From the NCBI GenBank assembly GCA_963800175.1, contig CAWCZS010000002.1:960328-1024327 (forward strand): DNA of 64,000 bases, written 5' to 3'. A program made the position numbers and the translations under genes. This document shows, piece after piece, positions 10,079 to 25,440 of this stretch. Positions within the stretch are counted from its first letter, which is position 1. Each line of letters opens with the position of its first letter. The DNA is from Candidatus Dormiibacterota bacterium. GTDB taxonomy: Bacteria; Chloroflexota; Dormibacteria; Aeolococcales; Aeolococcaceae. Under the pieces are notes generated by a model. That model saw nothing but the letters and a program-made list of their open reading frames with translations, had not been told where the DNA came from and searched no databases.

Positions 10079-10082
10079 GATG

Positions 10083-11290: not shown

Positions 11291-11294
11291 TGGC

Positions 11295-13634
11295 ATGAAG
11301 AGCACCGATCGCGCTGCGGCTCCAGGCAACTGGTCGACTCAGCAACTGGCGGAATTCCTCGTCGCTGTGGCCGCAAGCACCGACGAGCGTTCGGCGCGCC
11401 TGTGCGCGATGCAGTGGGCATCCGAGGTGTTGGAGGCCGAGGTGGCGGCTGTCGTCACCGCTGACTCGGTCGTCGACATGATCGGGTTTCCTCGGGGCCA
11501 GGTTCCGGTTGCGGCATTGCTCGTCGCGGGCCGCCACTCGAACCACGAACTCCACGTTCCGCGAGTTGGAGCACTGCGCTCGGTCAGCGTTCCCATTGAA
11601 GAGATCGAGGGCCATCTCGTGGTCGGTCGCTCCGGCGACGAGCACTTTGCTGCCGATGAAGTCGGCCTGCTGCGCGCGATGGGGCGCAGTCTTTCGATGA
11701 CTCTTCGCGCGCTGCGCATGCTGGAGCAGGAGCGAGCGCTCCGCGCCGAGGTGGAGCTGCGCGCGCAGGAGAACCTGCGCCTGCTGCTCATGGTGCAGGA
11801 GCGTCAGACGGCCCTCGAACGGCTTTCCAAGATCCGCTTGTCCATCTCGCGTCGCGCGCCGCTGCCGGAGGTGCTCGACTCAGTTGTTGAAGGGGCTCGT
11901 GATCTGCTCGGCGACGAGGTCGTCGGACTCCGGCTCCTGGATGACGAGCACCCCGGGTTCGCGAATCTGGTCTCGTCGACCGGCGTTTCCCACGCGGTGC
12001 TCGCCACGACAAAACGGAGTTCGCTGTCGAACGGCGCCGGCGGACGCGCGATCGTCGAGGATCGCGTGATCATCCTGAACGACTATCAGAACGACTCTGG
12101 TGCGATGAACGAGTTCGTCGGCGATGAGTTGCAGAGTGCGATCGCCGCTCCGATCCACGAAAACGGTCGTGCGGTTGGCAGCATCACTGTGGCGACGCAC
12201 CGCCCAGGGCGTGAATACACCGACACCGACTGCGAGATGCTCGTGGCGCTCGCGGATCAGGCGAGCATCGCGCTCAACGACGCGAAAGCAGTCGACCAGA
12301 TGCGTCATCTCGCGTACCACGACGCGCTGACCGGTTTGCCGAATCGCCTGCTGTTCTTCGAGCACCTGGTTCGCGCGGTCGCCAACGCCAACCGAAGCGG
12401 GGCGAGCACTGCGGTGCTCTACCTTGACCTTGATCGTTTCAAGGTGGTCAACGACAGCCTGGGTCACAACGTGGGCGACCGCCTCCTCGAGGCAGTGGCC
12501 AAGCGCCTCCGCTCCGCACTGCGGACGGCGGACCTCGCCGCGCGTCTTGGTGGTGACGAGTTTGCCGTGCTGGCCGAGAACACGACTGCCGAAGGCGCGG
12601 TGATTCTTGCGGGGCGGATCTGCGATTCGCTCCGTGATCCCTTCGGCATCAGCGGGCATGAGCTGACCGTGACTGCGAGCGTCGGAGTCGTGGTCGATGC
12701 GGCCGGTCACACCGACGCCGACGCTCTCCTGCGCAACGCGGACCTCGCCATGTATCGGGCCAAGGTCGACGGGCGTGGCGGGCATGCGGTGTACGAACCG
12801 GACATGCACGCCGTTGCCTCGGATCGTGCTCATCTCGAGGGGAACCTGCGCCGTGCGGTGGCGCTTGATCAATTCGAGGTGCATTACCAACCGATCGTCT
12901 GGCTGGCGACCGGCAAGGTGCTCGGTGTGGAAGCGCTGGTGCGCTGGCGTCGCGATGACGGTGTGCTGGTTTCACCGGCCGAGTTCATCCCGGTTGCAGA
13001 GGAGATGGGGCTCATCGTCCCGATCGGACGCATGGTCATGGATACGTCGATGCGCCAGGTGCGCGAATGGCAGGACACGCAGCCCGAGGAATGGAGCCTG
13101 AATCTCAGCATCAACCTCTCGGCGCGACAGCTCTATGAACCCGACATCGTGCGCGAAGTGGTTGATGCGCTGACCAGCACGGGTTTCGATCCGACGCACC
13201 TGACGTTGGAAATCACCGAGACCGCGTTGATGCACGACACTTCGACGGTGAGTGCGCGGCTGGACGAGCTTCGCGCTGTCGGTGCGCGCATCGCACTCGA
13301 CGATTTCGGCACCGGATATTCGTCGTTGAGCTACCTGCGCAACTTTCCAATCGACGTCCTCAAAGTGGACAAGTCATTTATCGACGACATAGCGTCGGGA
13401 TCGGACCGTGCGAATCTCGCCCGCGGGATCATCGAGCTCGGAAGGACCATGCAGCTCGACATCGTCGCCGAGGGAATCGAGGATCCACTGCAGGTCGTCG
13501 AGTTGTTGCGTCTGCAGTGCAGCATGGGTCAGGGCTTTCATTTCTCCCGGCCGCTTCCGCCCGCGGAGCTCAGCAAATACCTCCTCGCGCAGCACGGGGT
13601 TCCGGCGGTCAAACCGTCGATCGTCGCGGTCTAG
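11295..13634 (+). CDS. GAF-GAF-GGDEF-EAL c-di-GMP signalling protein
   Basis: ATG at 11295 lies 5 bp after the FIST stop. GGDEF motifs LTGLPNR and GGDEFAVL. EAL motifs EALVRW, DDFGTGYSSL and QGFHFSRPLP. Single clean 780-aa ORF. Confidence 0.85.
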   Translation: MKSTDRAAAPGNWSTQQLAEFLVAVAASTDERSARLCAMQWASEVLEAEVAAVVTADSVVDMIGFPRGQVPVAALLVAGRHSNHELHVPRVGALRSVSVPIEEIEGHLVVGRSGDEHFAADEVGLLRAMGRSLSMTLRALRMLEQERALRAEVELRAQENLRLLLMVQERQTALERLSKIRLSISRRAPLPEVLDSVVEGARDLLGDEVVGLRLLDDEHPGFANLVSSTGVSHAVLATTKRSSLSNGAGGRAIVEDRVIILNDYQNDSGAMNEFVGDELQSAIAAPIHENGRAVGSITVATHRPGREYTDTDCEMLVALADQASIALNDAKAVDQMRHLAYHDALTGLPNRLLFFEHLVRAVANANRSGASTAVLYLDLDRFKVVNDSLGHNVGDRLLEAVAKRLRSALRTADLAARLGGDEFAVLAENTTAEGAVILAGRICDSLRDPFGISGHELTVTASVGVVVDAAGHTDADALLRNADLAMYRAKVDGRGGHAVYEPDMHAVASDRAHLEGNLRRAVALDQFEVHYQPIVWLATGKVLGVEALVRWRRDDGVLVSPAEFIPVAEEMGLIVPIGRMVMDTSMRQVREWQDTQPEEWSLNLSINLSARQLYEPDIVREVVDALTSTGFDPTHLTLEITETALMHDTSTVSARLDELRAVGARIALDDFGTGYSSLSYLRNFPIDVLKVDKSFIDDIASGSDRANLARGIIELGRTMQLDIVAEGIEDPLQVVELLRLQCSMGQGFHFSRPLPPAELSKYLLAQHGVPAVKPSIVAV

Positions 13635-13754
13635 CCTCCTGCGCCTGCGCGAAGCGGGACGTGTAACCCCGGCTGGTATCCCTCCCAGGTCCGCGCCCAG
13701 AGGAGCGGGGGATGAGACGCCGCGTCGCGGCAACGCCGATCGGAGGAAGTACGC

Positions 13755-14468
13755 ATGGCAGGCACCGGACGACATTCCTTGAAGGTCGTCGTTGTGACGA
13801 TTGCGACAGTGATCGGGCTCGGGGCGGTGGGGCTGTTGCTTGCCGGGCTGACGCCGGCGACGAAGGCGACGCTCACGAGCGCGCGCGTGTCCGTCGTCAC
13901 GGGCGCCTCGATCACGATCAAAGACGGCGCGTGTGCCGGTGGCGGCACCGAGTTCTGCTTCAGCCCGGAGTCGGTCACCATCGCGGTCGGCACCGCTGTG
14001 GTCTGGACAAATGAGACCGGCATCAACCACACCACCAGTTCATGCACGTCGAGCGCGTGCCCCGGAGCACCGGCCAACACCGGCAGCCAGACTTTCAGCA
14101 ATCCGGTCGGCGCGGCCAAGGGCAGCACGGAGTCCGTCACGTTCACGAGCGCGGGGACGTACACGTACTACTGCATGATCCACGGCTACAACGCGATGCA
14201 CGGCACGATCATCGTTACCGGTGCGGCGATGCCGAAGATCTCGAAGGTCACGCCGAAGTCCGGACCCGTGGGCACTAAGGTGACGATCACCGGCAAGAAC
14301 CTCGCACTCGCGAGTGCCGTCACGTTCAACGGCACAGCGGCCGTCATCACCTCGGACACCGCGACCAAGATCGTGGTCAGGGTCCCTGCGGGCGCGACCA
14401 CAGGAAAGATCGAGGTCGTCGATCCTGACGGCAGTGCCATGAGCTCGGCAAGCTTCAAGGTCACGTAG
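13755..14468 (+). CDS. Membrane-anchored type-1 copper (cupredoxin, amicyanin/plastocyanin-like) protein with C-terminal IPT/TIG domain
   Basis: N-terminal TM helix. Cu ligands are His in GINHTT and C-x2-H-x4-M in YYCMIHGYNAMHG. The C-terminal PKISKVTPKSGPVGTKVTITGKNL is IPT/TIG-like. Confidence 0.7.
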   Translation: MAGTGRHSLKVVVVTIATVIGLGAVGLLLAGLTPATKATLTSARVSVVTGASITIKDGACAGGGTEFCFSPESVTIAVGTAVVWTNETGINHTTSSCTSSACPGAPANTGSQTFSNPVGAAKGSTESVTFTSAGTYTYYCMIHGYNAMHGTIIVTGAAMPKISKVTPKSGPVGTKVTITGKNLALASAVTFNGTAAVITSDTATKIVVRVPAGATTGKIEVVDPDGSAMSSASFKVT

Positions 14469-14488
14469 GTGCTGTAATTCGACACCAG

Positions 14489-15823
14489 GTGATCAAACCG
14501 GTCGGACATGCCTGGGGTCGAACGCTGCGCAAGGCAGTGCCTCGTGCGGAGCACGCGGACTTCACGCCGCCAACGGATCGGGGGGACCCGGTGGCGTTGC
14601 TCGAGCGCGGCAACGAGGGACGACGGGTCGACCTGATTCCCATCAGGTTCGGGCGGATGTCCGCAGCGCCGTATCCGTTCTTCCGGGGATCGGCGGCGAT
14701 CATGGCGCGCGATCTCGTTGGAACGCCGGTCAGCGGAATCACGGTGCAGCTTTGTGGTGATGCGCACCTGAGCAACTTCGGTCTGTATGCCACCCCCGAG
14801 CGGCGGTTGGTCTTTGGAGCCAATGACTTCGACGAGACACTTCGCGGTCCGTGGGAATGGGACCTCAAGCGTCTCGCCGCGAGTCTCGTCGTGGCCGCCC
14901 GTGATATCGGTCTCAGCGTGGAGCAGGGTGAGCGGGCTGCCGTCGCCGCCGCGTCCTCGTATCGCCAGCACATCGGGACGTACGCGACGATGGCGGCGCT
15001 CGACGTCTGGTACGCGACAGTCGATGTTCCGAGCGTCCTGCGCCTCATGCGTGACATCCGCACGCACGCGCGACACAGCGTTGCGCGAGCGCGGGAGCGC
15101 GGCCATCTCCGAGCGCTCAACAAGTTGACGGAGACAATCGATGGCATGCCGCGCATACGCCACGACCCGCCGCTCGTGGTGCGCCTCGACGACGAGCCGG
15201 CACTGCTTGCGCAGCTCGACGGTCTCATCGCCGGGTATCGCAGGACGCTACCCGAAGAACGCCGGGTGCTGTTCAATCGATACCGGCTTGTCGACGTCGC
15301 CCTCAAGGTCGTCGGTGTCGGCAGTGTCGGCACGCATTGCTGGATTGGGTTGCTGCGCTCCGACGCAGGCGATCCGCTGTTTCTCCAGGTCAAGGAAGCG
15401 CGCGCGTCGGTGCTCGAGGAGCCGCTCGGCACACGATGGCGCCGCCACCAGGGCAATCGCGTCGTGACCGGGCAGCGGTTGATGCAGGCATTCCCGGATG
15501 TGTTCCTCGGCTGGGCGACTGCGCAGGGATCCGGGCGTCAGTACTACGTCCGTCAACTCGAGGATATGAAGGGATCATTCAACGTCGTCGACATGGACGC
15601 AGGCGAGCTTGCGGCGTATGGAGCTCTCTGCGCATGGACGCTTGCCCGCGCACACGCGCGATCGGGAGATGCGGGCGCGATCGCCGGATACCTGGGATCG
15701 TCTCCGGTATTCGACATGGCGATCGGCCACTTCGCTCGCGCATACGCCGAGCAGAACGACAAGGACTACAACGCGCTCGTCGCGGCGATTGCCGGCGGGC
15801 GCGTCGCCGCCCAAAACGCGTAA
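14489..15823 (+). CDS. DUF2252-family protein (uncharacterized)
   Basis: 444 aa. N-terminal pattern RxxLRKxVPRxxHAxxTPxxxRxDPVALLE...PIRxGRMxxxPxxFxRG...QLCGDAHLSNFG is characteristic of DUF2252. Confidence 0.65.
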   Translation: MIKPVGHAWGRTLRKAVPRAEHADFTPPTDRGDPVALLERGNEGRRVDLIPIRFGRMSAAPYPFFRGSAAIMARDLVGTPVSGITVQLCGDAHLSNFGLYATPERRLVFGANDFDETLRGPWEWDLKRLAASLVVAARDIGLSVEQGERAAVAAASSYRQHIGTYATMAALDVWYATVDVPSVLRLMRDIRTHARHSVARARERGHLRALNKLTETIDGMPRIRHDPPLVVRLDDEPALLAQLDGLIAGYRRTLPEERRVLFNRYRLVDVALKVVGVGSVGTHCWIGLLRSDAGDPLFLQVKEARASVLEEPLGTRWRRHQGNRVVTGQRLMQAFPDVFLGWATAQGSGRQYYVRQLEDMKGSFNVVDMDAGELAAYGALCAWTLARAHARSGDAGAIAGYLGSSPVFDMAIGHFARAYAEQNDKDYNALVAAIAGGRVAAQNA

Positions 15824-15895
15824 CCGCGCTTTCCCGGCGTCCGGCACGGTCCCGGCGCCGAGTTCCCGGCGCGAGACACGGGGTATTCTTGCGCC

Positions 15896-16529
15896 GTGAA
15901 CTCGCGCCTTGTGGTTCCCGCGTACCGGCTTGTGTTTGCGGCTGTGACAATCGCCGCGATCATCAGCCAGGCGGTGGCGTCGATCAACCTCGGGATCTTC
16001 CGCCCTGTCAACTACTTCAGCTATTTCACCATCGACAGCAACCTGATCGCGGTGGCGCTCCTGCTGGTCGGTGTCGCACGTTGGCGCTCCACCAACTCGC
16101 CGGCGAATGGACGTCCTTCGCGGAGCAGGCGTGGTGTACATGTCGGTGACCGGCGTGGTGTTCACGCTGCTCCTGAGTGGCGTTGACGTGGATACGCAAC
16201 TCAAGTGGGTGAACACCGTGGTCCACGAGTTGATGCCGCTTGTCATGGTTGCTGACTGGTTGATCGCACCGCCTGCATCGCGCCTGACACTTCGCCAGGG
16301 AGCGCTGTGGCTGCTCTTCCCACTCGCCTGGATCATTTACACGGTGATTCGCGGCGCGGCAACCAATTGGTATCCGTACCCATTCCTGAATCCGGCCAAC
16401 GGTGGGTACGCCAGCGTGACGCTGTACTGCGTCGGCATCCTCGTGTTCATGCTCGTGGTGTGCGCCGCGGTCGTATGGCTTGGAAACCTCCGCCATCCCG
16501 AGTCCGCGGCTCAGGTGCAGACGGCCTGA
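15896..16529 (+). CDS. Pr6Pr-family integral membrane protein; frameshift near 16090
   Basis: FSYFTIDSNL plus the NWYPYPFLNP motif and about 6 TM helices, split between ORFs 15896.. and 16071..16529. Confidence 0.65.
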
Positions 16530-17289
16530 CGATTACGGTTTCGCACGCTCACCAACACCGCGATGCCGAGGCACACGAGCACCGCGATCACGAGAGCGAT
16601 CGGCACCGCCGGACTCCCACCCGAACTGACAAGCGTGACGACGGCGTGTGGTGACGGCGTGGAAGTTGGTGGGGTGCCGCTGATCGAGGGCAGATCCTCG
16701 GGCGTGGCGGTGGCACTCGGCGTCGTTGCTGTGGGGGTCGTTGCGTGCGCGGGAGCCGTCGCGTCCGGGACTCGCAGTTGGACGAGCAGTCGCGGACTGC
16801 ATGACCGGAGCGTGCGTCGGCCGCGCCGTTGGCCGCGGAAGTCGCGGATGGAACTGGGGGAGGCGTTGCGGGCGTGGCGACCACGATGGTGCCGTGCATC
16901 GCCACGTAGCCGTGGATGCTGCAGTAGTAGTAATAGGTTCCGGCGGTGCTGAATGTGAATGATCCGTGCCCATCCGCGGGCACGGCGACATCGAACGTGT
17001 TGATCCCGGTGCTCGCCGGGGAGCCCGGGCAGGCGCTCGGCGTGCACTGCGCAATCTCATGCGCGACACCACTTGTATCCGTCCATGTCACCGGCATCCC
17101 CGTCTCAGCTGTGGCGATTTCGGGAGTGAAACAGAACGACGTGCCGCCGTTGCTGCATGGGCCGGATGTGATCGCTATCCCAGTGGCTGCGGAGCCTCCC
17201 GTAGCGAGAACGACTGTCGCAGACGCCGCGACAAGTACGCCCGCAACCACGCCGAGCAACGCGCGAGCTCGATGGCGCTCGCTCACCAT
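16511..17289 (-). CDS. Type-1 copper (cupredoxin) paralog with Pro/Thr-rich linker and C-terminal TM anchor; frameshift near 16840
   Basis: ORF 16588..17418 has HEIAQC...YYCSIHGYVAMHG. ORF 16511..17047 supplies the PT-rich linker and the hydrophobic C-terminal helix VPIALVIAVLVCLGIAVLV. Confidence 0.65.
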
Positions 17290-17587
17290 GCGATCACACG
17301 GCGAACAGCGACACACGCGATGGTGCTGACGTCGTTCGACAACGCGGATGCCTCCAGAGCTGGCGTGCGGCTGCCGTGAGTTACGCGGCGCGGTTACACG
17401 CGCGGCCTCCGCTGCCACACGGCTGGTCGCAAACTGCTGGCTGCTTGACCGGTGCTTGCCCTGGGGAGCACGGTCGCCACCGGCCGAGAGCCGTCAGCGT
17501 CAGTGACGGAACTCGAGGCGCTCCGCGGTCGGAGCGAACGAGGCATGCTAGCGGCGATATGCCGCTGCAGCCCTTGGACGAGCTTCG

Positions 17588-18641
17588 ATGAGCATCGTCG
17601 TCCTCGTCGCCACGGCCCTCGCTGCCGGTGTCGAGTGGGTCGAGGCGCTGACGATCGTTCTGGCGGTCGGCATCGTCAAGGGATGGCGGAGCGCGTTGCT
17701 GGGCATGGCGATCGCATTCGTGGCGCTGGCGATCCTGGTTGCGGTCTTTGGGATCACCATCACGTCGCGCATCTCGATCGACGATGCCCGCACGTTCGTC
17801 GGGGTCTTTCTGCTGCTCTTCGGTCTCAAGTGGCTCCATAAAGCCATCCTCCGGTCCAGCGGGCTGAAGTCCCTCCATGACGAGGCCGCTTCCTTCGACG
17901 CGACGACCCAGCGTCTCGGTCCGAAAGGAGGGGCCGCCGGGATCGATCGGGTCGGGGTCACCACGGCGCTGGGTGGCGTCTTTCTCGAAGGCCTCGAAGT
18001 GGTGTTCATCGTCGTCGCGTTGGGTGGCCTCCAGGACATCCCGTCTGCGGTGGCCGGCGCGCTCGCTTGCACTGCTCGTGGTCGCCGGGGCCGGCCTCGC
18101 GTTCCGGCATCCGCTGACGCGCGTTCCCGAGAACACGATGAAATATGTCGTGGGCATCATGCTCACGTCCTTCGGCACGTTTTACGCAGGGGAGGGGATC
18201 GGTGTCCACTGGTGGGGCGACGACCTCAGCCTCGTGGTCTTGATCGCGACGTACGGGCTCGCGTCAATCGCGTTCGTCTGGTTCCTGCGGCGTCCCGCAC
18301 GCCGAAGCGCGCCGTCCGGGCTCGGCCGTGCGATCAAGGCTGTTGTGCTCGAGGTCTGGGGATTGTTCGTCGACGACGGTGCGGTGGCGCTGGTCGCCGT
18401 GGTGGCGCTGCTCGCGGTGGCGTTGTTCGTCCAGCACCAGGGCGACGGACACAACATCGCCGGCGTGCTGTTGATTGCCGGAGTGCTGATCGCAGTGGGC
18501 GTTGGGCTGTCGGCCGCCGGGCGGGCGGCTCGCAAGCCTGTGAAGTCCGATGCGCCGCCTGACCTGTCACCCGGTGGCGCGCTTCGCGAGAGTGACCTCG
18601 TATCCGGCGCTCCCGACCGAGGTGCCGACCGCAACGCATGA
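17588..18641 (+). CDS. Polytopic integral membrane protein, function unknown; frameshift near 18060
   Basis: ORFs 17588.. and 17877..18641 together give about 8 TM helices with repeated GxExxEALTIVLAVG / GLEVVFIVVALGG motifs. Confidence 0.5.
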
Positions 18642-19004
18642 CGCGGGGCTGACGCAGGTCACCGCCTGCAACTGGCGGGGGAACTCAGGAGGTTCGGGGA
18701 GTGCGCGGCATGCTGACAAAGATTGCCCGAACAAAGCGTGATGCAGCCTTGGGAATGTTCGCAGAGCGAATCACTTTTCGGGGGGCTTGACGTACCACCA
18801 CCGACAGGGCGATCATGGCGCCTTCAGATCGACCCGGCAACCTGTTGAGTGGAGAAACTGGTGACCGGATACATGTCATCTATAGCGGGGCGAGGCAGCA
18901 GCGCTTTCCGCATGTGCTCCCACAATTCCGCCTGCACCGCGCACCATTGCCGATGTTCTTCCCGCCGTTGCGCCAGTCCCCACGTTTAAAGAGGTAAGGC
19001 AAGC

Positions 19005-19634
19005 ATGCGATTGAGAATCTGGAGCCTCATCGGTGGCGTCGTGGTGTTCGGCGTGCTGGTCGGGTTCTTTGTCACGCGCTTCCTGAATCCCACGCCGCCG
19101 CAGATCACCGCGACGACCACGTCCACAACGTTGCAGGGGCGGCCCGTGGTGGACTTCAACCTCACCACGGTCGCTGCAGTCGGTACGGCGGGACAGGGCG
19201 GTGGAGAGCATCCGAACTGGGTCGGATATCTGCCGACCACCTTCCTCAAGGTTCCTGCGGGCGCGGTGGTGCACATGACCATCGATCAGCAGGACGGCCA
19301 GACGGGATTGCGCAACGAGTACTTCGGTCTTGTCCGCGGCACGATCAACGACCAGATGACGGTCGACGGCAAAGTGATGGGCGCTCTCAACCCGGCGCTC
19401 GCAGCCCACACGTTCACGATCCCCGACCTCGGTGTCAGCGTCCCGCTCGAAGGGGTGGCGGACAACGCGCCGGCCAACGCGCAGATCGTCGTCCAGTTCG
19501 ACTTCGTCGTCCCGGACACGCCGGGTCTGTTCCGCTGGCAGTGCTTCGTTCCCTGCGCCGCGGGGACGCTCTACGGCAACGGCGGGCCGATGCAGACCCT
19601 CGGCTACATGGCCGGCGAGTTGCAGGTGGGCTGA
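19005..19634 (+). CDS. Membrane-anchored cupredoxin-fold protein adjacent to oxidase subunit II
   Basis: N-terminal TM helix. Beta-rich periplasmic domain with VHMTID and a C-terminal FRWQCFVPCAAG...GYMAG cluster of Cys and Met. Start is 4 bp before ctaC. Confidence 0.55.
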   Translation: MRLRIWSLIGGVVVFGVLVGFFVTRFLNPTPPQITATTTSTTLQGRPVVDFNLTTVAAVGTAGQGGGEHPNWVGYLPTTFLKVPAGAVVHMTIDQQDGQTGLRNEYFGLVRGTINDQMTVDGKVMGALNPALAAHTFTIPDLGVSVPLEGVADNAPANAQIVVQFDFVVPDTPGLFRWQCFVPCAAGTLYGNGGPMQTLGYMAGELQVG

Positions 19635-19637
19635 CCG

Positions 19638-20477
19638 ATGAGAAATAGAGCCACCGCCACCCGAATCGTGATCATCGTCTGGCTCGTCCTGGCGGTCGCC
19701 GGCGACATCGGGCTTGCGCTGGCACCGATGCCGCCTGGTCAAGCGTCGGATCTGGCCTCGAACGAGAGCTTCACGATCCAGTTGCTCGCCCTCATCGGCT
19801 GGCCCATCTTCTCCGCGGTGCTCGCGGCGCTCTTCTTCACGCTCGTGGTGAACCACCTTGCCCCACCCACCGCGGAAGTGAGCGCCGATGCGCTTCGTGG
19901 CAACACCCGCGTCCAGACGACGTGGATCGTGGCCACGCTCGTGGTCGTGCTGAGCCTGGCCGTGTATGGAACCGTCGCACTTGCGATCGATCAACCGGGG
20001 GCAGGCATTTCCACGGACTCGTCGTCACTGCCGATGCCGACTTCGACGAGCCAGCCACTCGAGGTGCAGGTCATCGCGCAACAGTGGTGGTTCACGTATC
20101 GCTATCCCACGTATGGCGGCATCGAGACCGCACAGCTGGTGCTCCCCGTCAACCAGAAGATCCAGTTCCACGTCACGTCGCTCGACGTCGTGCACTCCTT
20201 CTGGTTCTACGCGCTCGGTGTGAAAGCTGATGCGGTGCCACTCAACGACAACGTGGTGACGGCAACGCCCACGAAGATCGGCACGTATCGCATCCAGTGC
20301 GCAGAGCTGTGCGGCCTCTGGCACGGCAACATGGCCGACAACACGGCGATGGTCGTGAGCCAGTCGGACTTCGCTGCCTGGATCCAGCAGGAGACCACCC
20401 TCGACGCGCCGATCATGAAGTACCTGTTGCCGTACAGCCACACGTACCTCCCGCAGCCGGCCATCTACGGATCGTGA
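19638..20477 (+). CDS. ctaC: Cytochrome c oxidase subunit II
   Basis: Two N-terminal TM helices and the CuA site HSFW...CAELCGLWHGNM. Confidence 0.9.
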   Translation: MRNRATATRIVIIVWLVLAVAGDIGLALAPMPPGQASDLASNESFTIQLLALIGWPIFSAVLAALFFTLVVNHLAPPTAEVSADALRGNTRVQTTWIVATLVVVLSLAVYGTVALAIDQPGAGISTDSSSLPMPTSTSQPLEVQVIAQQWWFTYRYPTYGGIETAQLVLPVNQKIQFHVTSLDVVHSFWFYALGVKADAVPLNDNVVTATPTKIGTYRIQCAELCGLWHGNMADNTAMVVSQSDFAAWIQQETTLDAPIMKYLLPYSHTYLPQPAIYGS

Positions 20478-20516
20478 TGATGCTCGACACCCATTCGCAT
20501 ACAAGGGAAAGCTGAC

Positions 20517-22440
20517 GTGGATGCTGTAACCACCGCACGTCCGCCGATGTCGACACCGCCGACACTGGCTCGCCGGCTCAGCGAGTGGGGACTGCCACTC
20601 GGAGTCGTCGGCGCCGTGATCGGGTTCATCATCGGCTTCGCTGTTGGCACGCACGCCATCCCGTACTCCTTTGGCGAGGACAACTCGCTCGGCTCCGACC
20701 CGGGAATCCTCCTCGGCTACGCGCTGAGCGTCGTCGGATTCCTCGCAGGCATGGGGTTCCTCAACTATCCGATCGGCCGTCTGCTGGGTGCGAAGCGCCC
20801 GACGGAGGAGGACAACGCGTACCTCCACGGTGAGGGTGGTGGGCTCGGTCGGTACTTCCGGATGACCACCGACCACAAGGTCATCGGGCTGCAGTACCTG
20901 GTGATGATCCTCACGTTCCTGTTCGTCGGCGGGCTCGGCGCGATGTTCATCCGTACCGAGCTGCTGACCCCATCGCCGACTGTCGCGAACGCGCAGTCAT
21001 ATCTGACGCTCGTCGGGTTGCACAGCACGCTGATGATCTTCATGGCGTCCGCGGCGATCATCGGGCCGTTCGGCAACTACTTCGTGCCGATCATGATCGG
21101 CACGCGCAACATGGCATTCCCACGCGTTGAGGCGCTTGACGTTCTGGCTCCTTCCACCTGCCGGATTGATCCTGCTCTCCACGGTGTTCCTGGGCGGTTT
21201 CACAACCGGGTGGACCGGCTACGCGCCGCTCGCCGATCAGAACGTGCTGGGCATGGACTCCTACCTCATCGCGTTCGCGCTCATCGGCATCTCGATCGGC
21301 CTGTCAGGGCTCAACATGATCGCGACGATCCTCACCAAGCGTGCTCCTGGGATGCCGCTCAGCCGGATGCCGATCTTCGTGTGGTCGGTGCTGGTCACGT
21401 CATTCCTCGGCGCGCTCGCGGCCCCCGCATTGATCGCCGCGGTTCTCATGGAAGTGTTCGACCGCTCGTATCAGACGACGTTCTTCGTCCCCGCCGGCGG
21501 TGGGTCGCCGTATCTCTGGGAGAACCTGTTCTGGTTCTTCGGCCACCCGGAGGTGTACATCTTCGTCGTCCCGGCTTTCGGGCTCGTCATGGAGATGCTG
21601 CCGGTCTTCACGCGACGGCCGCTCTGGGGCTATCGCGTCGGTGTCGGCGGCATGGTCGCAATCGGACTGCTCAGCTTTGTCGTGTGGCAGCACCACCTGT
21701 TCGTGAGCGGTCTCGCGCCGTCACTGCGACCGTTCTACATGTTCTCCACCGAGATGATCTCGGTGCCGACCGGCATCATCTACCTGGTGGCACTGGGGAC
21801 GATGTGGCGCGCGCGCACGCGTTTCACGGTGCCGATGCTGTTCATCTTCGGATTCTTCTTCAACTTCCTGATCGGCGGGTTCACCGGCGTGTTCCTGTCG
21901 GACGTGCCGAGTGACTTCACGCTGCACGCAAGCTACTTCGTGCAGGCGCATTTCCACTACACGATCATGGGAGGGGAGGTCTTCGCACTGATGGCGGCGA
22001 TCGTCTATTACCTCCCGAAGATGACCGGCCGCACCATGGACATCAAACTGCTGCGCTTCCAGTTCTGGGCCGTCTTCATCACGTTCAACGGAACGTTCAT
22101 CTCGCTCATCGCGGTCGGCATTCTCGGCATGCCGCGACGCGTCATCAGTTACGCGGCGTACCTGCAACCGCTGAACATCAGTGCAACGATCTTCGCGTAT
22201 GGGCTCGGGCTGTCGATGACACTCTTCCTCGGCATCCTGCTGTGGGAAGTGTTCATCAAGCAGCGGGTCGCGGCGAGCAACCCGTGGGATTCGCTGGGCG
22301 TCGAATGGCAGGTGCCGACACCGGTGCCGACATTCAACTTCGACCGTGTGCCGGTGTCCTGGTCGTTGCCGTATGACTACGACACAGGCAAGCCCGCGGC
22401 GGACTTCGGGCCGGCCGTGCCCGCCTTGAGTGGAGCGTGA
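20517..22440 (+). CDS. ctaD: Cytochrome c oxidase subunit I with ~65-aa N-terminal extension; frameshift near 21130
   Basis: TTDHKVIGLQYLV, GNYFVPIMIG, WFFGHPEVYIF and HHLFV..HFHYT heme/CuB ligand motifs. The expected FPRLNALSFWLLPP is broken between ORFs 20517.. and 21127..22440. Confidence 0.9.
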
Positions 22441-23042
22441 GCATGAGTGACGTCAGCCCGACCGGGCTCACCGTGATGGACGATACCGACGGCGGACGCA
22501 CGCTGGTCTTCACGTCGCGATTGGTGATGGCGGCGAACACCACACTCCAGCTGAGCCTGCTCTTCGCGTACCTCTATCTCCGCGCCAACAACTTCGCGCA
22601 GATGTGGCGTCCGAGCGGTGTGAACCCCCCGCCGGAGGCGCTCGCGCTCACCGGACTCGTGTTCCCGGTGATCACGCTCGCGGCACTCTGGGCCGTCTAC
22701 AACGCCGTGAGCAAGGCGCGCGACGCGCGGTCCATCAACGGGTTGCTCTGGCTGGCGGTGTTGTGCGCAGTCATCACCGGCACGATCCGCATCGTGCTCA
22801 TGTACCAGTTCAACTGGGAGCTCGACAGCGCGGGGACCTACGCGGCGATCACGACACTCTGGTACGCGGTGGTGTTGAGCGAGTTCATCCTCGTCGGCCT
22901 GTGGCTGCTCAGCCTGACGATGGGGCATGTGCGCGGCACGGATCGACTCAATCCTGCGCGTGCGCGAGCCGTGCTGGATCAGTGGACGTACATCACCGGC
23001 CTTTCGATTGCGGTGTACCTGCTGGTCCAGTTCGTCAAGTAG
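22437..23042 (+). CDS. Cytochrome c oxidase subunit III-like membrane protein
   Basis: 201 aa with about 5 TM helices. The GTG start overlaps the ctaD stop, matching the position of subunit III/IV in actinobacterial cta operons. Confidence 0.55.
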   Translation: MSMSDVSPTGLTVMDDTDGGRTLVFTSRLVMAANTTLQLSLLFAYLYLRANNFAQMWRPSGVNPPPEALALTGLVFPVITLAALWAVYNAVSKARDARSINGLLWLAVLCAVITGTIRIVLMYQFNWELDSAGTYAAITTLWYAVVLSEFILVGLWLLSLTMGHVRGTDRLNPARARAVLDQWTYITGLSIAVYLLVQFVK

Positions 23043-23048
23043 GGCGAT

Positions 23049-23889
23049 ATGCTCTGGCCACCGCTGTTTGACTGGAGTTTCGAGCCAGTACCGATCGTAG
23101 GAAGCGCGTACTGCTGCCTACCTGTACTGGCGCGGGCGCCGGACTGGAGCGTTGGCCCTCGGACGTTCGACATCGTGGGACAACGGTGACACCGCGTTCG
23201 TTCTCGGTATCGGCGCATTGCTCCTCGCGCTGATCTCACCGATCTCGTACTTCGACATCACCCTGCAGTGGGACCACATGGTGCAGCACGTGCTCCTGCT
23301 GCTCGTCGCCCCGCCGCTGATCCTGCTCGCGGATCCGTTCCGCACGGTATGGGCCGGCTACCTGGCCGCGCAGGGGCGCCCGATCGTGATCGAGGGAACC
23401 TGGCCCGCGCGGGTGATGGGCAAGCTCCACTCGGGTCCGAGAGCAGCCGCGGCGGTGGTGGCCCTCTTCAGCGTCGACCTCCTCCTGTGGCATCTGCCCC
23501 CGATCTACAACGCGACCTTGCGGATCGCGTCGGTGCATGACCTCGAGCACCTCACCTTCCTCGTGGTCGGACTGCTCTTCTGGGACCAGGTCATCAGCCC
23601 GTTGCAGGCCCCTGGCCGGTTGTCGCTCCTCGGACGAGGCGTGGTGGTGATGGTGGGCATGTTCGTGAGCTGGGGGCTCGCGATCGTGATCGGCTACGCA
23701 ACCCATCCGCTCTACGCTTACCCGGTGCCGCACGGGGGGTTGAGCCTGCTCGGGGACCAGGAGATCGCCGCGGGCGTGATGTGGGTGCCGGGTGGGGTCC
23801 CATTTCTCATCGCCCTGCTGTATCTCGGCATTCGCTGGTTCGAGGTGGATGACCGCGCCGGATCGAGCGCGGCGGTGACACAGCCATGA
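23049..23889 (+). CDS. ctaG: Cytochrome c oxidase assembly factor CtaG (Caa3_CtaG family); frameshift near 23105
   Basis: HMVQHVLLLLVAPPLILLADP motif. The N-terminus MLWPPLFDWSFEP is in frame 0 and continues in frame 1 (ORF 23152..23889). Confidence 0.75.
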
Positions 23890-24410
23890 TGGTCCGCAGG
23901 CGCCTGATGATCGGTTGCGCGCTCGTGTTGTTCGCCTCCGCGTGCGGGGCAGTGAAGCCCGAGGCGATCCCCACGTTGCAGGTCACCGCGACGGGCGGCC
24001 CGACGCTGACCGGGAAGGACGTCAGCATCACGTCGTTCCGCGGCCGGCCGGTGGTGCTGATCTTCTGGGCGTCCTGGTGTGGACCCTGCCATGATGAGCA
24101 GCCGGCACTGAACGCGGCGTACACGCAGTGGTCGCCTCGCGGTGTCGTGTTCCTGGGCGTCGACCTTCGCGACACGACCACTCCCGCGCTCGCGTTCCAA
24201 TCGGAGTTCAAGGTGCCGTATCCCAGCATCGCCGACACCAACGCGACCCTGGCGATCGACTACCGTATTCCCTCGGCGCCGTCCCTGGTCTTTCTCAACG
24301 CGCAGGGCAAGGTCGCGGACGTCGTGCTCGGGGCGCTCGGCACCATGAGCGTCGCCGATTTCAATGCGGAGCTCACAACGCTGCTGGGCTCGCCGGCCAC
24401 GAGCGCGTAG
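23886..24410 (+). CDS. TlpA/ResA-like thiol-disulfide oxidoreductase lipoprotein
   Basis: Lipobox LFASACG, thioredoxin WCGPC active site, 174 aa. Confidence 0.8.
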   Translation: MMVRRRLMIGCALVLFASACGAVKPEAIPTLQVTATGGPTLTGKDVSITSFRGRPVVLIFWASWCGPCHDEQPALNAAYTQWSPRGVVFLGVDLRDTTTPALAFQSEFKVPYPSIADTNATLAIDYRIPSAPSLVFLNAQGKVADVVLGALGTMSVADFNAELTTLLGSPATSA

Positions 24411-24418
24411 GAGAGGGG

Positions 24419-25373
24419 ATGCAGACCAGCGCAGACATCGTCATCGGCGGAGCGGAGGGGACCGGCGTGCCCACCGTCGCTGTTGACGTCGCCGGTCGCC
24501 GATCCACACAACTCCGCGCGAGCGCTCGCGATTACGTGAGCCTGACCAAGCCTCGCATCATCGTGCTCCTTCTCATCACGGAGATCGCGACGATGGTCAT
24601 CGCCGCGCGGGGGATTCCGTCGCCCGGCGTTGCTGCTGTGGGCCGCGCTCGGCGGGGCGCTCGCATCCGGCGGATCAGGCGCGATCAACTGCTGGTACGA
24701 CCGCGACATCGACCGCGTCATGGCGCGCACGTGCACCCGTCCGCTCCCGTCGGGACGCATTCTGCCGTGGCAGGCGCTCACGTTCGGCGTGTCGTTGATC
24801 GTCGCATCCGTGCTCGTGTTCAGCCTCGCCGTGAATCTGCTCTCGGCCGCGCTGGCACTCGGCGGTGGCTTGTTCTACGTGTTCATCTACACGATGCTGC
24901 TCAAGCGAAGGACGCCGCTGAACATCGTCATCGGCGGTGCCGCAGGCGCGTTCCCGCCACTGGTGGGTTGGGCTGCGGTGCAGGGCAACGTCGGCTGGCC
25001 GGCGTTCGTACTCTTCGCGGTGGTGTTCCTCTGGACGCCGCCACACTTCTGGTCACTCGCACTGCTGCTCCGTCGCGACTACCGCAATGCCAGCGTGCCG
25101 ATGTTGCCGGGCATCATCGGAACGGCCAGGACGCACCGGCGAATCCTTCTCTACCTCGTGGTGCTGATCGCGGCGAGCCTGCTTCCTGGACTCGTTCTCG
25201 GCATCGGGTACACGATCGGCGCGGCAGTTCTGGGCGCGTTCTACATGGGGCTTGCCCTCTGGGCTCGCGCCGAGGGTTCATCACGCGCGGTGGCGCTGCT
25301 GTTCCACTACTCGCTCGCGTATCTCGCGCTCATCTTCGTGGTGGGCGCTGTGGCGGCGGTCGTCCTCGGCTAA
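24419..25373 (+). CDS. ctaB: Protoheme IX farnesyltransferase (heme O synthase); frameshift near 24620
   Basis: LTKPRIIVLLLITEIATM in frame 2, then INCWYDRDIDRVMARTCTRPLPSG and LWTPPHFWSLALL in ORF 24630..25373. Confidence 0.85.
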
Positions 25374-25440
25374 GCGCTCGGGCTCAACTGGCGAGGATCG
25401 TTCAGGTCGAGTCGCCGCCCTAAGCATTGACACGCTGAAG

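What the first reader, a model, noticed from the sequence alone, without database searches (positions are those of the whole stretch)
13755..17289. Paired type-1 copper (cupredoxin) paralogs with different C-terminal modules flank DUF2252 and Pr6Pr genes upstream of the oxidase cluster
Two proteins share an N-terminal anchor, a conserved C-x4-C disulfide pair (SSCTSSAC / AQCTPSAC) and full blue-copper ligand sets (H ... C-x2-H-x4-M). One (+ strand) ends in an IPT/TIG domain. The other (- strand, convergent) ends in a Pro/Thr-rich stalk plus a C-terminal TM anchor. They bracket an uncharacterized DUF2252 gene and a Pr6Pr membrane protein and lie 2-5 kb from ctaC. They could be electron donors to the aa3 oxidase, which in actinobacteria normally relies on a fused bcc-aa3 supercomplex, or part of a separate redox module.
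Basis: partly seen in the sequence, partly recalled or inferred. Interest (0 to 1): 0.6.

Follow-up and report, generated by a model that had tools for sequence, protein, structure and literature searches.

The report
Tethered blue-copper protein pair, Dormibacterota
Two related blue-copper (type-1 copper) proteins that sit on the cell surface are encoded a few kilobases from a respiratory oxidase in an uncultured soil bacterium of the phylum Dormibacterota; they are real and rare, probably carry electrons, but their link to the oxidase holds only in close relatives.

Summary
The two cupredoxin genes are real. CupA (13755-14468, +) is a plastocyanin-like domain fused to an IPT/TIG domain. CupB (16511-17289, -) is a paralog (44% identity) followed by an 87-residue Pro/Thr/Ala stalk and a C-terminal membrane helix. 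In this window, CupB's stalk and anchor are readable only after removing two single-base insertions (16840, 16766). Pr6Pr, ctaD and other genes carry similar frameshifts, but near-identical strains have intact genes, so these are probably assembly errors. The four copper ligands and four extra cysteines are invariant in 37 homologs. The organism is a Dormibacterota bacterium, not an actinobacterium, so the bcc-aa3 argument does not apply. DUF2252 and Pr6Pr are not a conserved module. Across relatives the region between CupA and the oxidase gains and loses DUF2252, Pr6Pr, CupB and a hydrolase. CupA lies near the oxidase only in relatives with at least 72% identity. More distant relatives place it beside CopC-CopD, and the most widespread relative has a CupA truncated before its Cys-His-Met ligand loop, next to an intact oxidase cluster. 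The best reading is surface-tethered electron carriers, auracyanin-like, possibly feeding the oxidase (about 0.4). A conserved, unannotated cupredoxin-like gene directly upstream of ctaC (p209) may be the more novel item.

The parts
13755..14468 (+). CupA: N-terminal hydrophobic signal/anchor (aa 7-36), plastocyanin-like type-1 copper domain (aa ~50-155, nt 13902-14219) and C-terminal IPT/TIG domain (aa 160-237, nt 14232-14465). Ligands H92, C140, H143, M148; structural Cys 60, 68, 97, 102.
   Evidence: Pfam Copper-bind and TIG. AlphaFold2 pLDDT above 90 for residues 50-237. Foldseek matches to plastocyanins, 5fc9 and pseudoazurin. PDB profile alignment to plastocyanin 1pcs, E 2.7e-12. Invariant columns in A1. 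Hydropathy.
14489..15823 (+). DUF2252 gene. A passenger, not a conserved partner. Its 5' end is affected by a 1-nt insertion at 14514.
   Evidence: Pfam PF10009, E 1.6e-137. Found next to CupA only in L009 and L010 (98-99% identical strains); absent in L001, L004, L005, L007, L008, L011, L012 and L093.
15896..16529 (+). Pr6Pr-family membrane protein, split in the window by a 1-nt insertion at 16104. It is a recurrent but not universal neighbour of CupA.
   Evidence: Two ORFs in different frames. GC3 frame switch. Insertion relative to L009 and L010. Repair gives 210 aa. The intact ortholog L012:10751-11383 hits NCBIfam NF038065 at 109.7 bits. The CupA-Pr6Pr adjacency is also seen in L011, L012 and L093.
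16511..17289 (-). CupB: signal/anchor (aa 8-36), type-1 copper domain (nt ~16879-17184), an 87-aa stalk (Pro 23%, Thr 22%, Ala 18%, Ser 11%), a C-terminal membrane helix (nt 16544-16609) and a basic tail RNRNRQAVCT. It needs removal of single-base insertions at 16840 and 16766 to read through.
   Evidence: Pfam Copper-bind. Ortholog tblastn hits in three frames. Intact orthologs L005:12056-12913, P0088 and P0241. Repair test. Hydropathy and stalk composition.
17588..18641 (+). Membrane protein of about 350 aa (frameshifted near 18000-18060) with two E-x-x-E motifs. It gives weak matches to the OFeT_1/FTR1-like permease family. It is divergent from CupB and always lies just upstream of the oxidase cluster in close relatives.
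   Evidence: ORFs and GC3 switch. Intact orthologs hit Pfam OFeT_1 at E 4e-5 and 6.8e-4, both below the cutoff. Synteny.
19005..19634 (+). p209: a membrane-anchored, unannotated cupredoxin-like protein encoded 4 nt upstream of ctaC. It has invariant H135, C180, M196 and M202, and C184 in at least 90% of members (WQCFVPCAAGTLYGNGGPMQTLGYM).
   Evidence: No Pfam, NCBIfam or PDB sequence hit. 2172 homologs. 587 clusters at 50% identity. Alignments A2 and A3. AlphaFold2 pLDDT 73.5. Foldseek matches to rusticyanin, AcoP, NirK and the CupA chaperone. hhalign to CtaC aligns the His and C-x3-C motifs. Weak COX2 and Cupredoxin_1 hits in family members.
19638..25373 (+). A-family haem-copper oxidase cluster: ctaC (19638-20477, CuA motif CAELCGLWHGNM), ctaD (20517-22440, frameshifted near 21130), ctaE (22437-23042), Caa3_CtaG (23152-23889), a TlpA-like thioredoxin (23886-24410) and a UbiA/ctaB-like gene (24546-25373).
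   Evidence: ORFs. Pfam COX2, Caa3_CtaG and UbiA. NCBIfam CoxB at 128 bits, below its cutoff of 147.7. CuA motif scan. Intact orthologous clusters in L001, L005 and L094.

Best explanation
CupA and CupB are two paralogous type-1 (blue) copper electron-transfer proteins of a Dormibacterota bacterium. Both are exported and held at the outer face of the cell membrane by different means. CupA has a C-terminal IPT/TIG (Ig-like) domain. CupB has a long Pro/Thr-rich stalk ending in a membrane helix. Each would hold one copper through His92, Cys140, His143 and Met148 (CupA numbering). Two family-specific cysteine pairs probably form disulfides that brace the loops around the copper site. The most likely job is one-electron shuttling on the cell surface, feeding the CuA centre of the neighbouring A-family haem-copper oxidase. 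That would resemble auracyanin A/B in Chloroflexus, or halocyanin and sulfocyanin in archaea. DUF2252 and Pr6Pr are passengers in a variable region.

Shown: the fold, the ligand set, conservation, paralogy, the tethering modules and the gene neighbourhoods.
Inferred: copper binding, the disulfides, the topology and the electron acceptor.
For: - Pfam Copper-bind scores above cutoff for both proteins.
- Ligands align to plastocyanin's H37/C84/H87/M92 and are invariant in 37 homologs down to 35% identity, as are C60, C68, C97 and C102.
- The CupA model is confident (pLDDT above 90 in both domains) and matches plastocyanin, 5fc9 and pseudoazurin.
- Both have N-terminal hydrophobic export segments, and CupB has a C-terminal membrane helix.
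- CupB's stalk and anchor are conserved in L005, P0088, P0241, P0242 and P0245.
- The oxidase cluster lies 2.3-5.2 kb away in the window and near CupA orthologs in L001 and L005.
- The window has no CxxCH cytochrome c or Rieske motif in a credible coding frame, and ctaC has no fused cytochrome c domain.
- More distant cupredoxin homologs sit next to ctaC/ctaD in archaeal loci L021, L027 and L077.
- Precedent in the related phylum Chloroflexota: auracyanins A and B are 38% identical. One is soluble and one is membrane-tethered. They are proposed to serve different ACIII complexes, and an auracyanin-like gene lies adjacent to a COX II gene (PMC3150298).
Against: - The link to the oxidase is proximity only. 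Genes of both orientations intervene, and no operon is shared.
- It is restricted to relatives with at least 72% CupA identity.
- In L004 and L008, CupA-TIG lies convergent with a CopC-CopD fusion. In L008 it also lies beside a CsoR-like repressor. In that genome the oxidase cluster is about 48 kb away, with no cupredoxin next to it.
- In L007 no copper or oxidase genes were called nearby.
- The most widespread relative (P0035; 46 contigs, including one of 3.07 Mb) has CupA truncated before the Cys-His-Met loop and no CupB, yet it keeps the oxidase cluster.
- P0042 has lost the Cys and His ligands.
- The oxidase operon carries its own cupredoxin-like protein (p209), which could be the real entry point or a chaperone.
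- No upstream electron donor was identified.
- Copper binding and redox activity were not measured.
Confidence: 0.4

Rival explanations
1. Copper handling rather than respiration. The proteins would bind, buffer or oxidise extracytoplasmic copper, like the cupredoxin-like CopI of copper-tolerance systems. They would work with CopC-CopD type importers or resistance proteins, and perhaps supply copper to the oxidase.
For: - CupA-TIG is convergent with a 677-aa CopC-CopD fusion in L004 and L008.
- In L008 a CsoR-type metal repressor and an ArsP permease lie directly upstream.
- L017 (a second cupredoxin in the L012 MAG) is followed by a CopCD-like gene.
- The L004/L092 lineage clusters three cupredoxins with CopCD.
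Against: - CupA and CupB have no His/Met-rich copper-capture regions of the kind reported for CopI (abstract of PMC13308877).
- A complete, invariant His-Cys-His-Met set with plastocyanin spacing is the signature of an electron-transfer site.
- The window locus has no CopC, CopD or copper regulator.
Confidence: 0.2
2. They are type-1 copper electron carriers, but for a partner other than the neighbouring oxidase. Candidates are an unidentified surface oxidoreductase, a quinol-oxidising complex feeding another acceptor, or a secreted enzyme. The adjacency to the oxidase would then be a lineage-specific accident.
For: - The same fold and ligand evidence as the main explanation.
- The neighbourhood is variable, and the oxidase cluster stands alone in L094.
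- L007 has CupA with no called respiratory or copper genes nearby.
Against: - No alternative partner is encoded next to CupA or CupB in any locus examined.
- The oxidase is the only obvious acceptor for a copper protein in the window.
Confidence: 0.2
3. CupB is the oxidase partner of the divergently transcribed FTR1/OFeT-like permease. It would oxidise Fe(II) at the surface so that Fe(III) is taken up, as proposed for the cupredoxin-like FtrB and EfeO components of FTR1-type iron uptake systems (my own knowledge).
For: - CupB and the permease are divergent neighbours in the window (17289 / 17588) and in L005.
- Two permease orthologs hit Pfam OFeT_1, one over most of the profile (E 4e-5 and 6.8e-4).
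- Two E-x-x-E motifs (EWVE, EGLE) can be read in the sequence.
Against: - Both OFeT_1 scores are below the Pfam cutoff (23.9 and 19.8 versus 26.9).
- The permease occurs without CupB in L001 and L012.
- CupB-like proteins occur without the permease in L092.
- CupA is not explained by this model.
Confidence: 0.08
4. The genes are decaying pseudogenes in this genome, as the frameshifts in CupB, Pr6Pr and ctaD would suggest.
For: - There are multiple frame breaks in the window.
- The called gene on the 2.70-Mb source contig is the truncated 233-aa form.
Against: - All checked breaks are single-base insertions relative to independent contigs that are 96-99% identical and carry intact ORFs.
- The breaks also hit ctaD and a FIST gene, at roughly one per 2 kb.
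- Those read at base level mostly lengthen short runs of one base (tt, gg, gggg), which is typical of long-read assembly error.
- GC3 stays high in the corrected frames.
Confidence: 0.03

Closest known systems
Auracyanins A and B of Chloroflexus aurantiacus (type-1 copper electron carriers)
   Same: - A pair of paralogous type-1 copper proteins (38% identical, versus 44% here) in a related phylum.
- One is membrane-tethered through a flexible linker.
- They are proposed carriers between a quinol-oxidising complex and terminal acceptors.
- An auracyanin-like gene lies next to a COX II gene (PMC3150298).
   Different: - Sequence similarity is marginal and limited to the C-terminal ligand loop (E 0.002-0.003).
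- As far as I know, auracyanins have a different cupredoxin topology and are tethered at the N-terminus.
- Here the retention modules are C-terminal (TIG domain, or stalk plus membrane helix).
- There are two extra cysteine pairs.
- No ACIII was found in the window.
Cyanobacterial plastocyanin (e.g. Synechocystis, PDB 1pcs)
   Same: - It is the best sequence and fold match (E 2.7e-12; Foldseek TM-score to target about 0.7).
- The ligand order and C-x2-H-x4-M spacing are identical.
- JGI annotates the family as 'plastocyanin'.
   Different: - It scores 43.1 bits against the plastocyanin equivalog model, whose cutoff is 87.85.
- The organism is not photosynthetic.
- The sequence SCTSSACPGAPANTG, carrying the C-x4-C pair, follows the His ligand where plastocyanin has a shorter, Cys-free stretch.
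- A second Cys pair lies in the N-terminal hairpin.
- Tethering modules are added.
Membrane-anchored archaeal cupredoxins (halocyanin, sulfocyanin, thaumarchaeal plastocyanin-like proteins such as Nmar_1307, PDB 5fc9)
   Same: - They are anchored single-domain cupredoxins encoded near haem-copper oxidases in organisms with few or no c-type cytochromes (my own knowledge).
- 5fc9 is the best compact structural match (TM-score to target 0.79).
- Related archaeal loci L021, L027 and L077 have ctaC/ctaD nearby.
   Different: - The halocyanin model scores 33.5 bits against a cutoff of 93.8.
- The related archaeal loci found here have the short C-x2-H-x2-M loop and lack the cysteine pairs.
CopI, a cupredoxin-like copper-tolerance protein
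   Same: - It is an exported cupredoxin-like protein that functions with copper homeostasis genes (PMC13308877, PMC7558416).
- CupA orthologs neighbour CopC-CopD in L004 and L008.
   Different: - CupA and CupB lack His/Met-rich capture regions.
- The window locus has no cop genes.
AcoP, rusticyanin and CuA domains (comparison for p209 only)
   Same: - p209 is a membrane-anchored cupredoxin-fold protein encoded with oxidase genes, as AcoP is in Acidithiobacillus.
- Its best Foldseek hits are rusticyanin and AcoP.
- Its His and C-x3-C residues align with the CuA ligands of CtaC.
   Different: - The scores are weak (TM 0.3-0.46; hhalign probability 8%).
- The conserved residues are one His, two Cys and two Met, which matches neither a type-1 site nor a canonical CuA site.

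Membership tests
Type-1 copper protein, plastocyanin/azurin family (Pfam PF00127) | Sequence match above the family's gathering score | tested here: met
   CupA scores 47.6 bits and CupB 27.6 bits, against a cutoff of 21.2.
Type-1 copper protein, plastocyanin/azurin family (Pfam PF00127) | Four ligands, His ... Cys-x2-His-x4-Met, at the canonical positions and conserved in relatives | tested here: met
   They align to the plastocyanin ligands. H92, C140, H143 and M148 are invariant in 37 sequences. Exceptions outside that alignment: truncated P0035, and P0042.
Type-1 copper protein, plastocyanin/azurin family (Pfam PF00127) | Greek-key beta-sandwich cupredoxin fold | tested here: met
   The CupA AlphaFold2 model has pLDDT above 90 in the domain. 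Foldseek matches plastocyanins, 5fc9 and pseudoazurin with probability 1.0. CupB was not modelled; its fold is inferred from 44% identity.
Type-1 copper protein, plastocyanin/azurin family (Pfam PF00127) | Copper-site geometry, actual copper binding, the 600-nm band and the redox potential | not testable with these tools
   Model coordinates are not returned, so ligand distances and Cys-Cys distances could not be measured. The rest needs spectroscopy.
Plastocyanin proper (NCBIfam TIGR02656, equivalog) | Score at or above the curated cutoff | tested here: not met
   CupA scores 43.1 bits and the CupB ortholog 41.2, against a cutoff of 87.85.
Halocyanin (TIGR03102) and amicyanin (TIGR02657) | Score at or above the curated cutoff | tested here: not met
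   33.5 bits against 93.8, and 26.8 against 110.2. The C-x2-H-x4-M loop spacing also differs from the C-x2-H-x2-M loop seen in the more distant relatives.
Auracyanin | Recognisable sequence homology over the whole domain | tested here: not met
   Only the last ~35 residues align, at E 0.0019-0.0026. The resemblance is functional and architectural, not membership.
IPT/TIG domain (Pfam PF01833) | Sequence match above cutoff, and an Ig-like beta-sandwich | tested here: met
   46.8 bits against a cutoff of 20.9, residues 160-231. Strands are modelled with pLDDT 84-95.
Pr6Pr family membrane protein (NCBIfam NF038065) | Score above cutoff on an intact protein | tested here: met
   The L012 ortholog scores 109.7 bits against a cutoff of 30. 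The window copy needs the base at 16104 removed.
Conserved gene module 'two cupredoxins + DUF2252 + Pr6Pr' | The four genes occur together across relatives | tested here: not met
   - All four are linked only in the window; the close-strain contigs L009 and L010 show CupA, DUF2252 and Pr6Pr and then end.
- L093 has CupA-Pr6Pr-CupB.
- L012 has CupA-Pr6Pr.
- L005 has CupA, an unrelated 381-aa gene, then CupB.
- L001 has only a truncated CupA.
- L004 and L008 have CupA-CopCD.

Dedicated electron donor of a haem-copper oxidase | Conserved genetic linkage or co-occurrence with the oxidase | tested here: inconclusive
   - They are linked (2-5 kb, not co-operonic) in the window, L001 and L005.
- They are unlinked in L004, L007 and L008/L094 (about 48 kb apart).
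- CupA is truncated beside an intact oxidase cluster in L001.

Dedicated electron donor of a haem-copper oxidase | Electron transfer to CuA is demonstrated | not testable with these tools
   Needs biochemistry.
   - The best genome hit is a Candidatus Dormibacteraeota MAG (84% identity over the full length).
- p209 homologs carry the name Candidatus Dormiibacterota.
- ctaC scores 82.8 bits against a cutoff of 250 for the actinobacterial CtaC model.

The most novel reading that the evidence does not exclude
The Dormibacterota A-family oxidase is fed through an all-copper, cytochrome-c-independent path. Surface-tethered type-1 copper proteins (CupA, CupB and paralogs) would pass electrons to p209, and p209 would pass them to CuA of CtaC. 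p209 belongs to a previously undescribed family of membrane-anchored cupredoxin-like proteins with a conserved His/Cys/Cys/Met/Met site, encoded directly upstream of ctaC. The evidence does not exclude this reading, and it gives no direct support beyond gene order, predicted folds and conserved residues. p209 could equally be a copper chaperone for CuA assembly.
Probability: 0.12. Interest if true: 0.7.

Novelty: new variant of a known kind. Interest (0 to 1): 0.4.

Why it matters
Dormibacterota are abundant in peat, permafrost and desert soils and have no cultured representative that I know of, so their respiratory wiring is known only from genome annotation. This locus shows they encode a distinct, rare subfamily of plastocyanin-like proteins. 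About 45 TIG-fused and about a dozen stalk-anchored sequences were found among 5.8 billion proteins. The subfamily carries two extra cysteine pairs and unusual C-terminal retention modules. If these proteins do feed the oxidase, they would be a Dormibacterota counterpart of auracyanin and would give concrete, expressible targets for reconstructing electron flow in this phylum. The practical lesson is also useful: the apparent four-gene 'module' is an accident of a fast-changing region. The unannotated p209 gene inside the oxidase operon belongs to a far larger and more strongly conserved family.

Tried and rejected
- Searched for c-type cytochrome (CxxCH) and Rieske motifs in all six frames of the window. 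The CxxCH hits fall in a thioredoxin, a secreted protease-like protein and an out-of-frame ORF inside the GGDEF/EAL gene, so no cytochrome c was found.
- Promoter and terminator scans of 13400-19700 gave counts at chance level and say nothing about operon structure.
- Three literature searches for Dormibacterota respiratory chains found no paper describing their electron carriers. One paper on MAGs from acid mine drainage only mentions partial oxidative phosphorylation genes.
- L071, labelled Dormiibacterota, has a cupredoxin beside ctaC/ctaD. Its low-GC, archaeal-type genes suggest mis-binning, so I did not count it as evidence for the phylum.
- Profile-profile comparison of p209 with the CupA/CupB family found only the N-terminal helix (probability 1.4%). 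p209 is therefore not a close paralog of CupA or CupB.
- Sequence searches of p209 and of the permease against PDB sequences found nothing.
- Copper-site geometry and disulfide distances could not be measured, because model coordinates are not returned.
- CupB's domain is 44% identical to the confidently modelled CupA domain.

Full report
**What is in the sequence**

The region 13755-17289 holds four genes.
- CupA (13755-14468, +, 237 aa) matches Pfam Copper-bind (47.6 bits) and IPT/TIG (46.8 bits).
- A DUF2252 gene follows (14489-15823, E 1.6e-137).
- Next is a Pr6Pr-family membrane protein (15896-16529, +).
- The last, convergent, is CupB. It starts at 17289 on the minus strand and also matches Copper-bind (27.6 bits).

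CupA and the intact L005 ortholog of CupB are 44% identical over 152 residues (E 2e-37), so paralogy is solid. ctaC starts at 19638, which is 2.3 kb from CupB and 5.2 kb from CupA.

**Frameshifts**

The window does not encode CupB's stalk and anchor in one frame.
- The ORF from 17289 stops at 16588 after an Arg/Pro-rich tail.
- A GC3 frame plot shows frame switches in CupB's tail, in Pr6Pr, and in the membrane-protein gene at 17588-18641. The ORF list shows ctaD split between two frames as well.
- Orthologs of CupB align to three different frames of the minus strand.
- Removing one base at 16840 (in a TT) and one at 16766 (in a GG) restores a 258-aa ORF ending at 16511. It is 182/189 identical to P0241, an uninterrupted protein from an independent contig.
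- Two JGI contigs 98-99% identical to the window (L009, L010) lack single bases that the window has at 10804 (FIST gene), 14514 (DUF2252 5' end) and 16104 (Pr6Pr).
- Removing 16104 restores a 210-aa Pr6Pr.
- The truncated 233-aa CupB is the gene called on a 2.70-Mb NCBI/ENA contig, presumably the window's source.

The pattern is single-base insertions about every 2 kb, also hitting ctaD. Most of those read at base level lengthen a short run of one base. It points to long-read assembly error, not gene decay.

**The proteins**

In an alignment of 37 homologs down to 35% identity, the four type-1 copper ligands (H92, C140, H143, M148 in CupA) are invariant. So are four further cysteines (C60, C68, C97, C102) and W84, G104 and G110.

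A profile of the family finds cyanobacterial plastocyanin as the best solved relative (1pcs, E 2.7e-12). Ligand aligns with ligand, and the region carrying C97/C102 (SCTSSACPGAPANTG) is longer than the matching stretch of plastocyanin.

The AlphaFold2 model of CupA is confident in both domains (pLDDT above 90 for residues 50-237). It matches plastocyanins, the Nitrosopumilus cupredoxin 5fc9 (TM-score to target 0.79), pseudoazurin and AcoP.

The family falls well below NCBI's curated cutoffs for plastocyanin, halocyanin and amicyanin. It is a distinct subfamily, not an ortholog of any named cupredoxin. Its signature is the C-x-I-H-G-Y-x-x-M ligand loop plus the C-x4-C pair. This signature is confined to loci from Dormibacterota MAGs, one MAG labelled Chloroflexi and a few Acidimicrobiia/Actinomycetes MAGs. 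More distant hits have amicyanin-like or plastocyanin-like loops and no such cysteines.

Both proteins begin with a basic stretch and a hydrophobic segment of about 22-29 residues. In CupA orthologs this is followed by a conserved A-x-A/TLTSA motif, which suggests a long signal peptide rather than a permanent anchor.

CupB continues into an 87-residue stalk (Pro 23%, Thr 22%, Ala 18%, Ser 11%), a membrane helix and a basic tail. This architecture is shared by L005's ortholog, P0088, P0241, P0242 and P0245.

TIG domains occur elsewhere in the window, in a 1004-aa secreted protein. TIG therefore looks like a general surface module in this organism.

**The organism**

The best genome match for CupA is a Candidatus Dormibacteraeota MAG (84% identity over the full length). 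Homologs of the neighbouring p209 gene carry the name Candidatus Dormiibacterota. ctaC scores far below the actinobacterial CtaC model (82.8 bits against a cutoff of 250).

**Neighbourhoods in relatives**

With CupA oriented on the plus strand:
- Window: CupA, DUF2252, Pr6Pr, CupB(-), permease, oxidase cluster.
- L093: CupA, Pr6Pr, CupB(-), alpha/beta hydrolase.
- L012: CupA, Pr6Pr, hydrolase, permease, 790-aa gene(-).
- L001 (the most widespread relative; its CupA seen on 46 contigs, including one of 3.07 Mb): CupA truncated at residue 144 just before the Cys ligand, hydrolase, permease, 741-aa gene(-), oxidase cluster.
- L005: CupA, an unrelated 381-aa gene, CupB(-), permease, oxidase cluster.
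- L004 and L008 (61-69% identity): CupA convergent with a CopC-CopD fusion. L008 also has a CsoR-like repressor and an ArsP permease upstream. L004/L092 have further cupredoxins nearby.
- L007: no copper or oxidase genes were called nearby.
- In the L008 genome, the oxidase cluster lies about 48 kb away on the same contig, preceded by GlpABC-like and DsbA genes, with no cupredoxin or permease.

Three conclusions follow.
1. DUF2252 is specific to the window's strain group. Pr6Pr is a frequent but dispensable neighbour of CupA.
2. The CupA/CupB pairing recurs (window, L005/L006, L093, and loosely L004) but is not fixed.
3. Linkage to the oxidase is confined to one sub-lineage, and that lineage tolerates loss of CupA's copper site and of CupB.

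**Most likely mechanism**

These are exported, surface-retained one-electron carriers. The invariant His-Cys-His-Met set with plastocyanin spacing is the hallmark of an electron-transfer site rather than a copper-storage site. Tethering makes sense if the cell has no closed periplasm. That is an inference from the relationship to Chloroflexota; the Dormibacterota envelope is not known to me.

The only evident acceptor nearby is the CuA centre of the A-family oxidase. Its subunit II has a complete CuA motif and no fused cytochrome c. The 64-kb window encodes no cytochrome c or Rieske protein.

The closest functional analogy is the auracyanin A/B pair of Chloroflexus. These are 38% identical, one soluble and one tethered, and are proposed to serve different ACIII complexes; an auracyanin-like gene sits beside a COX II gene (PMC3150298).

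I put about 0.9 on 'type-1 copper proteins' and about 0.4 on 'donors to this oxidase'.

**Rival explanations**
- A copper-handling role like CopI, supported by the CopC-CopD neighbourhoods (about 0.2).
- Carriers for some other partner (about 0.2).
- CupB as the oxidase partner of the divergent FTR1/OFeT-like permease (about 0.08). The family hits are reproducible but below cutoff.
- Real pseudogenes (about 0.03).

**p209, found outside the finding's coordinates**

The gene directly upstream of ctaC (p209, 19005-19634) has no Pfam, NCBIfam or PDB sequence match. It nevertheless belongs to a large family: 2172 homologs and 587 clusters at 50% identity. Between lineages it is more conserved (91-93%) than CupA (72-84%).

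It has an N-terminal membrane helix. H135, C180, M196 and M202 are invariant, and C184 is nearly so, down to 28% identity. Its model (pLDDT 73.5) matches rusticyanin, AcoP, NirK domains and the S. pneumoniae CupA chaperone. hhalign places its His and C-x3-C on the CuA ligands of CtaC, though at only 8% probability. A few family members weakly hit COX2 or Cupredoxin_1.

p209 is either an extra redox subunit or a CuA-assembly chaperone. Either way it is a better-conserved companion of this oxidase than CupA or CupB.

**Verdict**

The four-gene module is not real. The family is a new variant of a known kind: tethered cupredoxins. Interest is moderate (0.4). No result here would greatly surprise a specialist, but the locus offers expressible candidates for the unknown respiratory wiring of an uncultured phylum.

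Noticed in passing
window 19005-19634 (+): p209 is an unannotated membrane-anchored protein encoded 4 nt upstream of ctaC. It belongs to a large family (587 clusters at 50% identity) with invariant H135, C180, M196 and M202 and near-invariant C184. The predicted fold is cupredoxin-like (rusticyanin/AcoP hits). Its His and C-x3-C align with the CuA ligands of CtaC at low probability. It may be a new oxidase subunit or a CuA chaperone.
   Followed up: partly
window 10804, 14514, 16104, 16766, 16840, ~18000-18060, ~21130: Single-base insertions break the FIST gene, the DUF2252 5' end, Pr6Pr, CupB (twice), the permease and ctaD. Near-identical independent contigs and proteins lack them. This looks like long-read assembly error in a 2.70-Mb source contig. 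The breaks in the permease and ctaD were seen only as frame switches and were not mapped to the base.
   Followed up: partly
window 17588-18641 (+); L005:13060-14124; L001:12051-13103: A membrane protein of about 350 aa with two E-x-x-E motifs gives weak, sub-threshold hits to Pfam OFeT_1 (FTR1-like iron/lead permease). It always lies just upstream of the oxidase cluster in close relatives and is divergent from CupB. It may be a metal permease.
   Followed up: partly
L001:10001-10435 (protein P0035): In the most widely sampled relative (46 contigs, one of 3.07 Mb), the CupA ortholog ends at residue 144 (…YTYYRSSAA*). It lacks the Cys, His and Met ligands and the TIG domain. The rest is deleted, not frameshifted, and the oxidase cluster 5 kb away is intact.
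   Followed up: yes
L004:10001-12772; L008:6880-11233; L092: In more distant Dormibacterota relatives, CupA-TIG is convergent with a 677-aa CopC-CopD fusion. In L008 a CsoR-type repressor and an ArsP permease lie upstream. The L004/L092 lineage has up to three cupredoxins clustered with a Band_7 protein and DUF4349.
   Followed up: partly
window 16511-16529; L093:2468-2480: The convergent genes Pr6Pr and CupB overlap at their 3' ends by 19 nt in the window. In L093 the CupB ortholog overlaps the convergent 210-aa Pr6Pr-like gene by 13 nt.
   Followed up: no
L071 (DASPWZ010000046.1, labelled Candidatus Dormiibacterota): This contig has visibly low-GC coding sequence and genes that look archaeal (a fused ctaD-ctaE of 810 aa, polyprenyl synthase-like, triose-phosphate isomerase-like and class I aldolase-like genes, judged by eye). 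It also has an amicyanin-loop cupredoxin near ctaC/ctaD. It is probably mis-binned.
   Followed up: partly
window 25252-28266 (+): A 1004-aa secreted protein has a protease-like N-terminal half (judged by eye), an IPT/TIG domain (residues 502-564, 33% identical to CupA's TIG) and long repetitive C-terminal regions. Its CPNCH motif is not a cytochrome c site.
   Followed up: partly
window ~8500-13634 (+): A cyclic-di-GMP signalling cluster (GGDEF, FIST, GAF-GGDEF-EAL) lies immediately upstream of CupA. It keeps that position in L001, L009, L010, L011 and L012, but not in L005.
   Followed up: no
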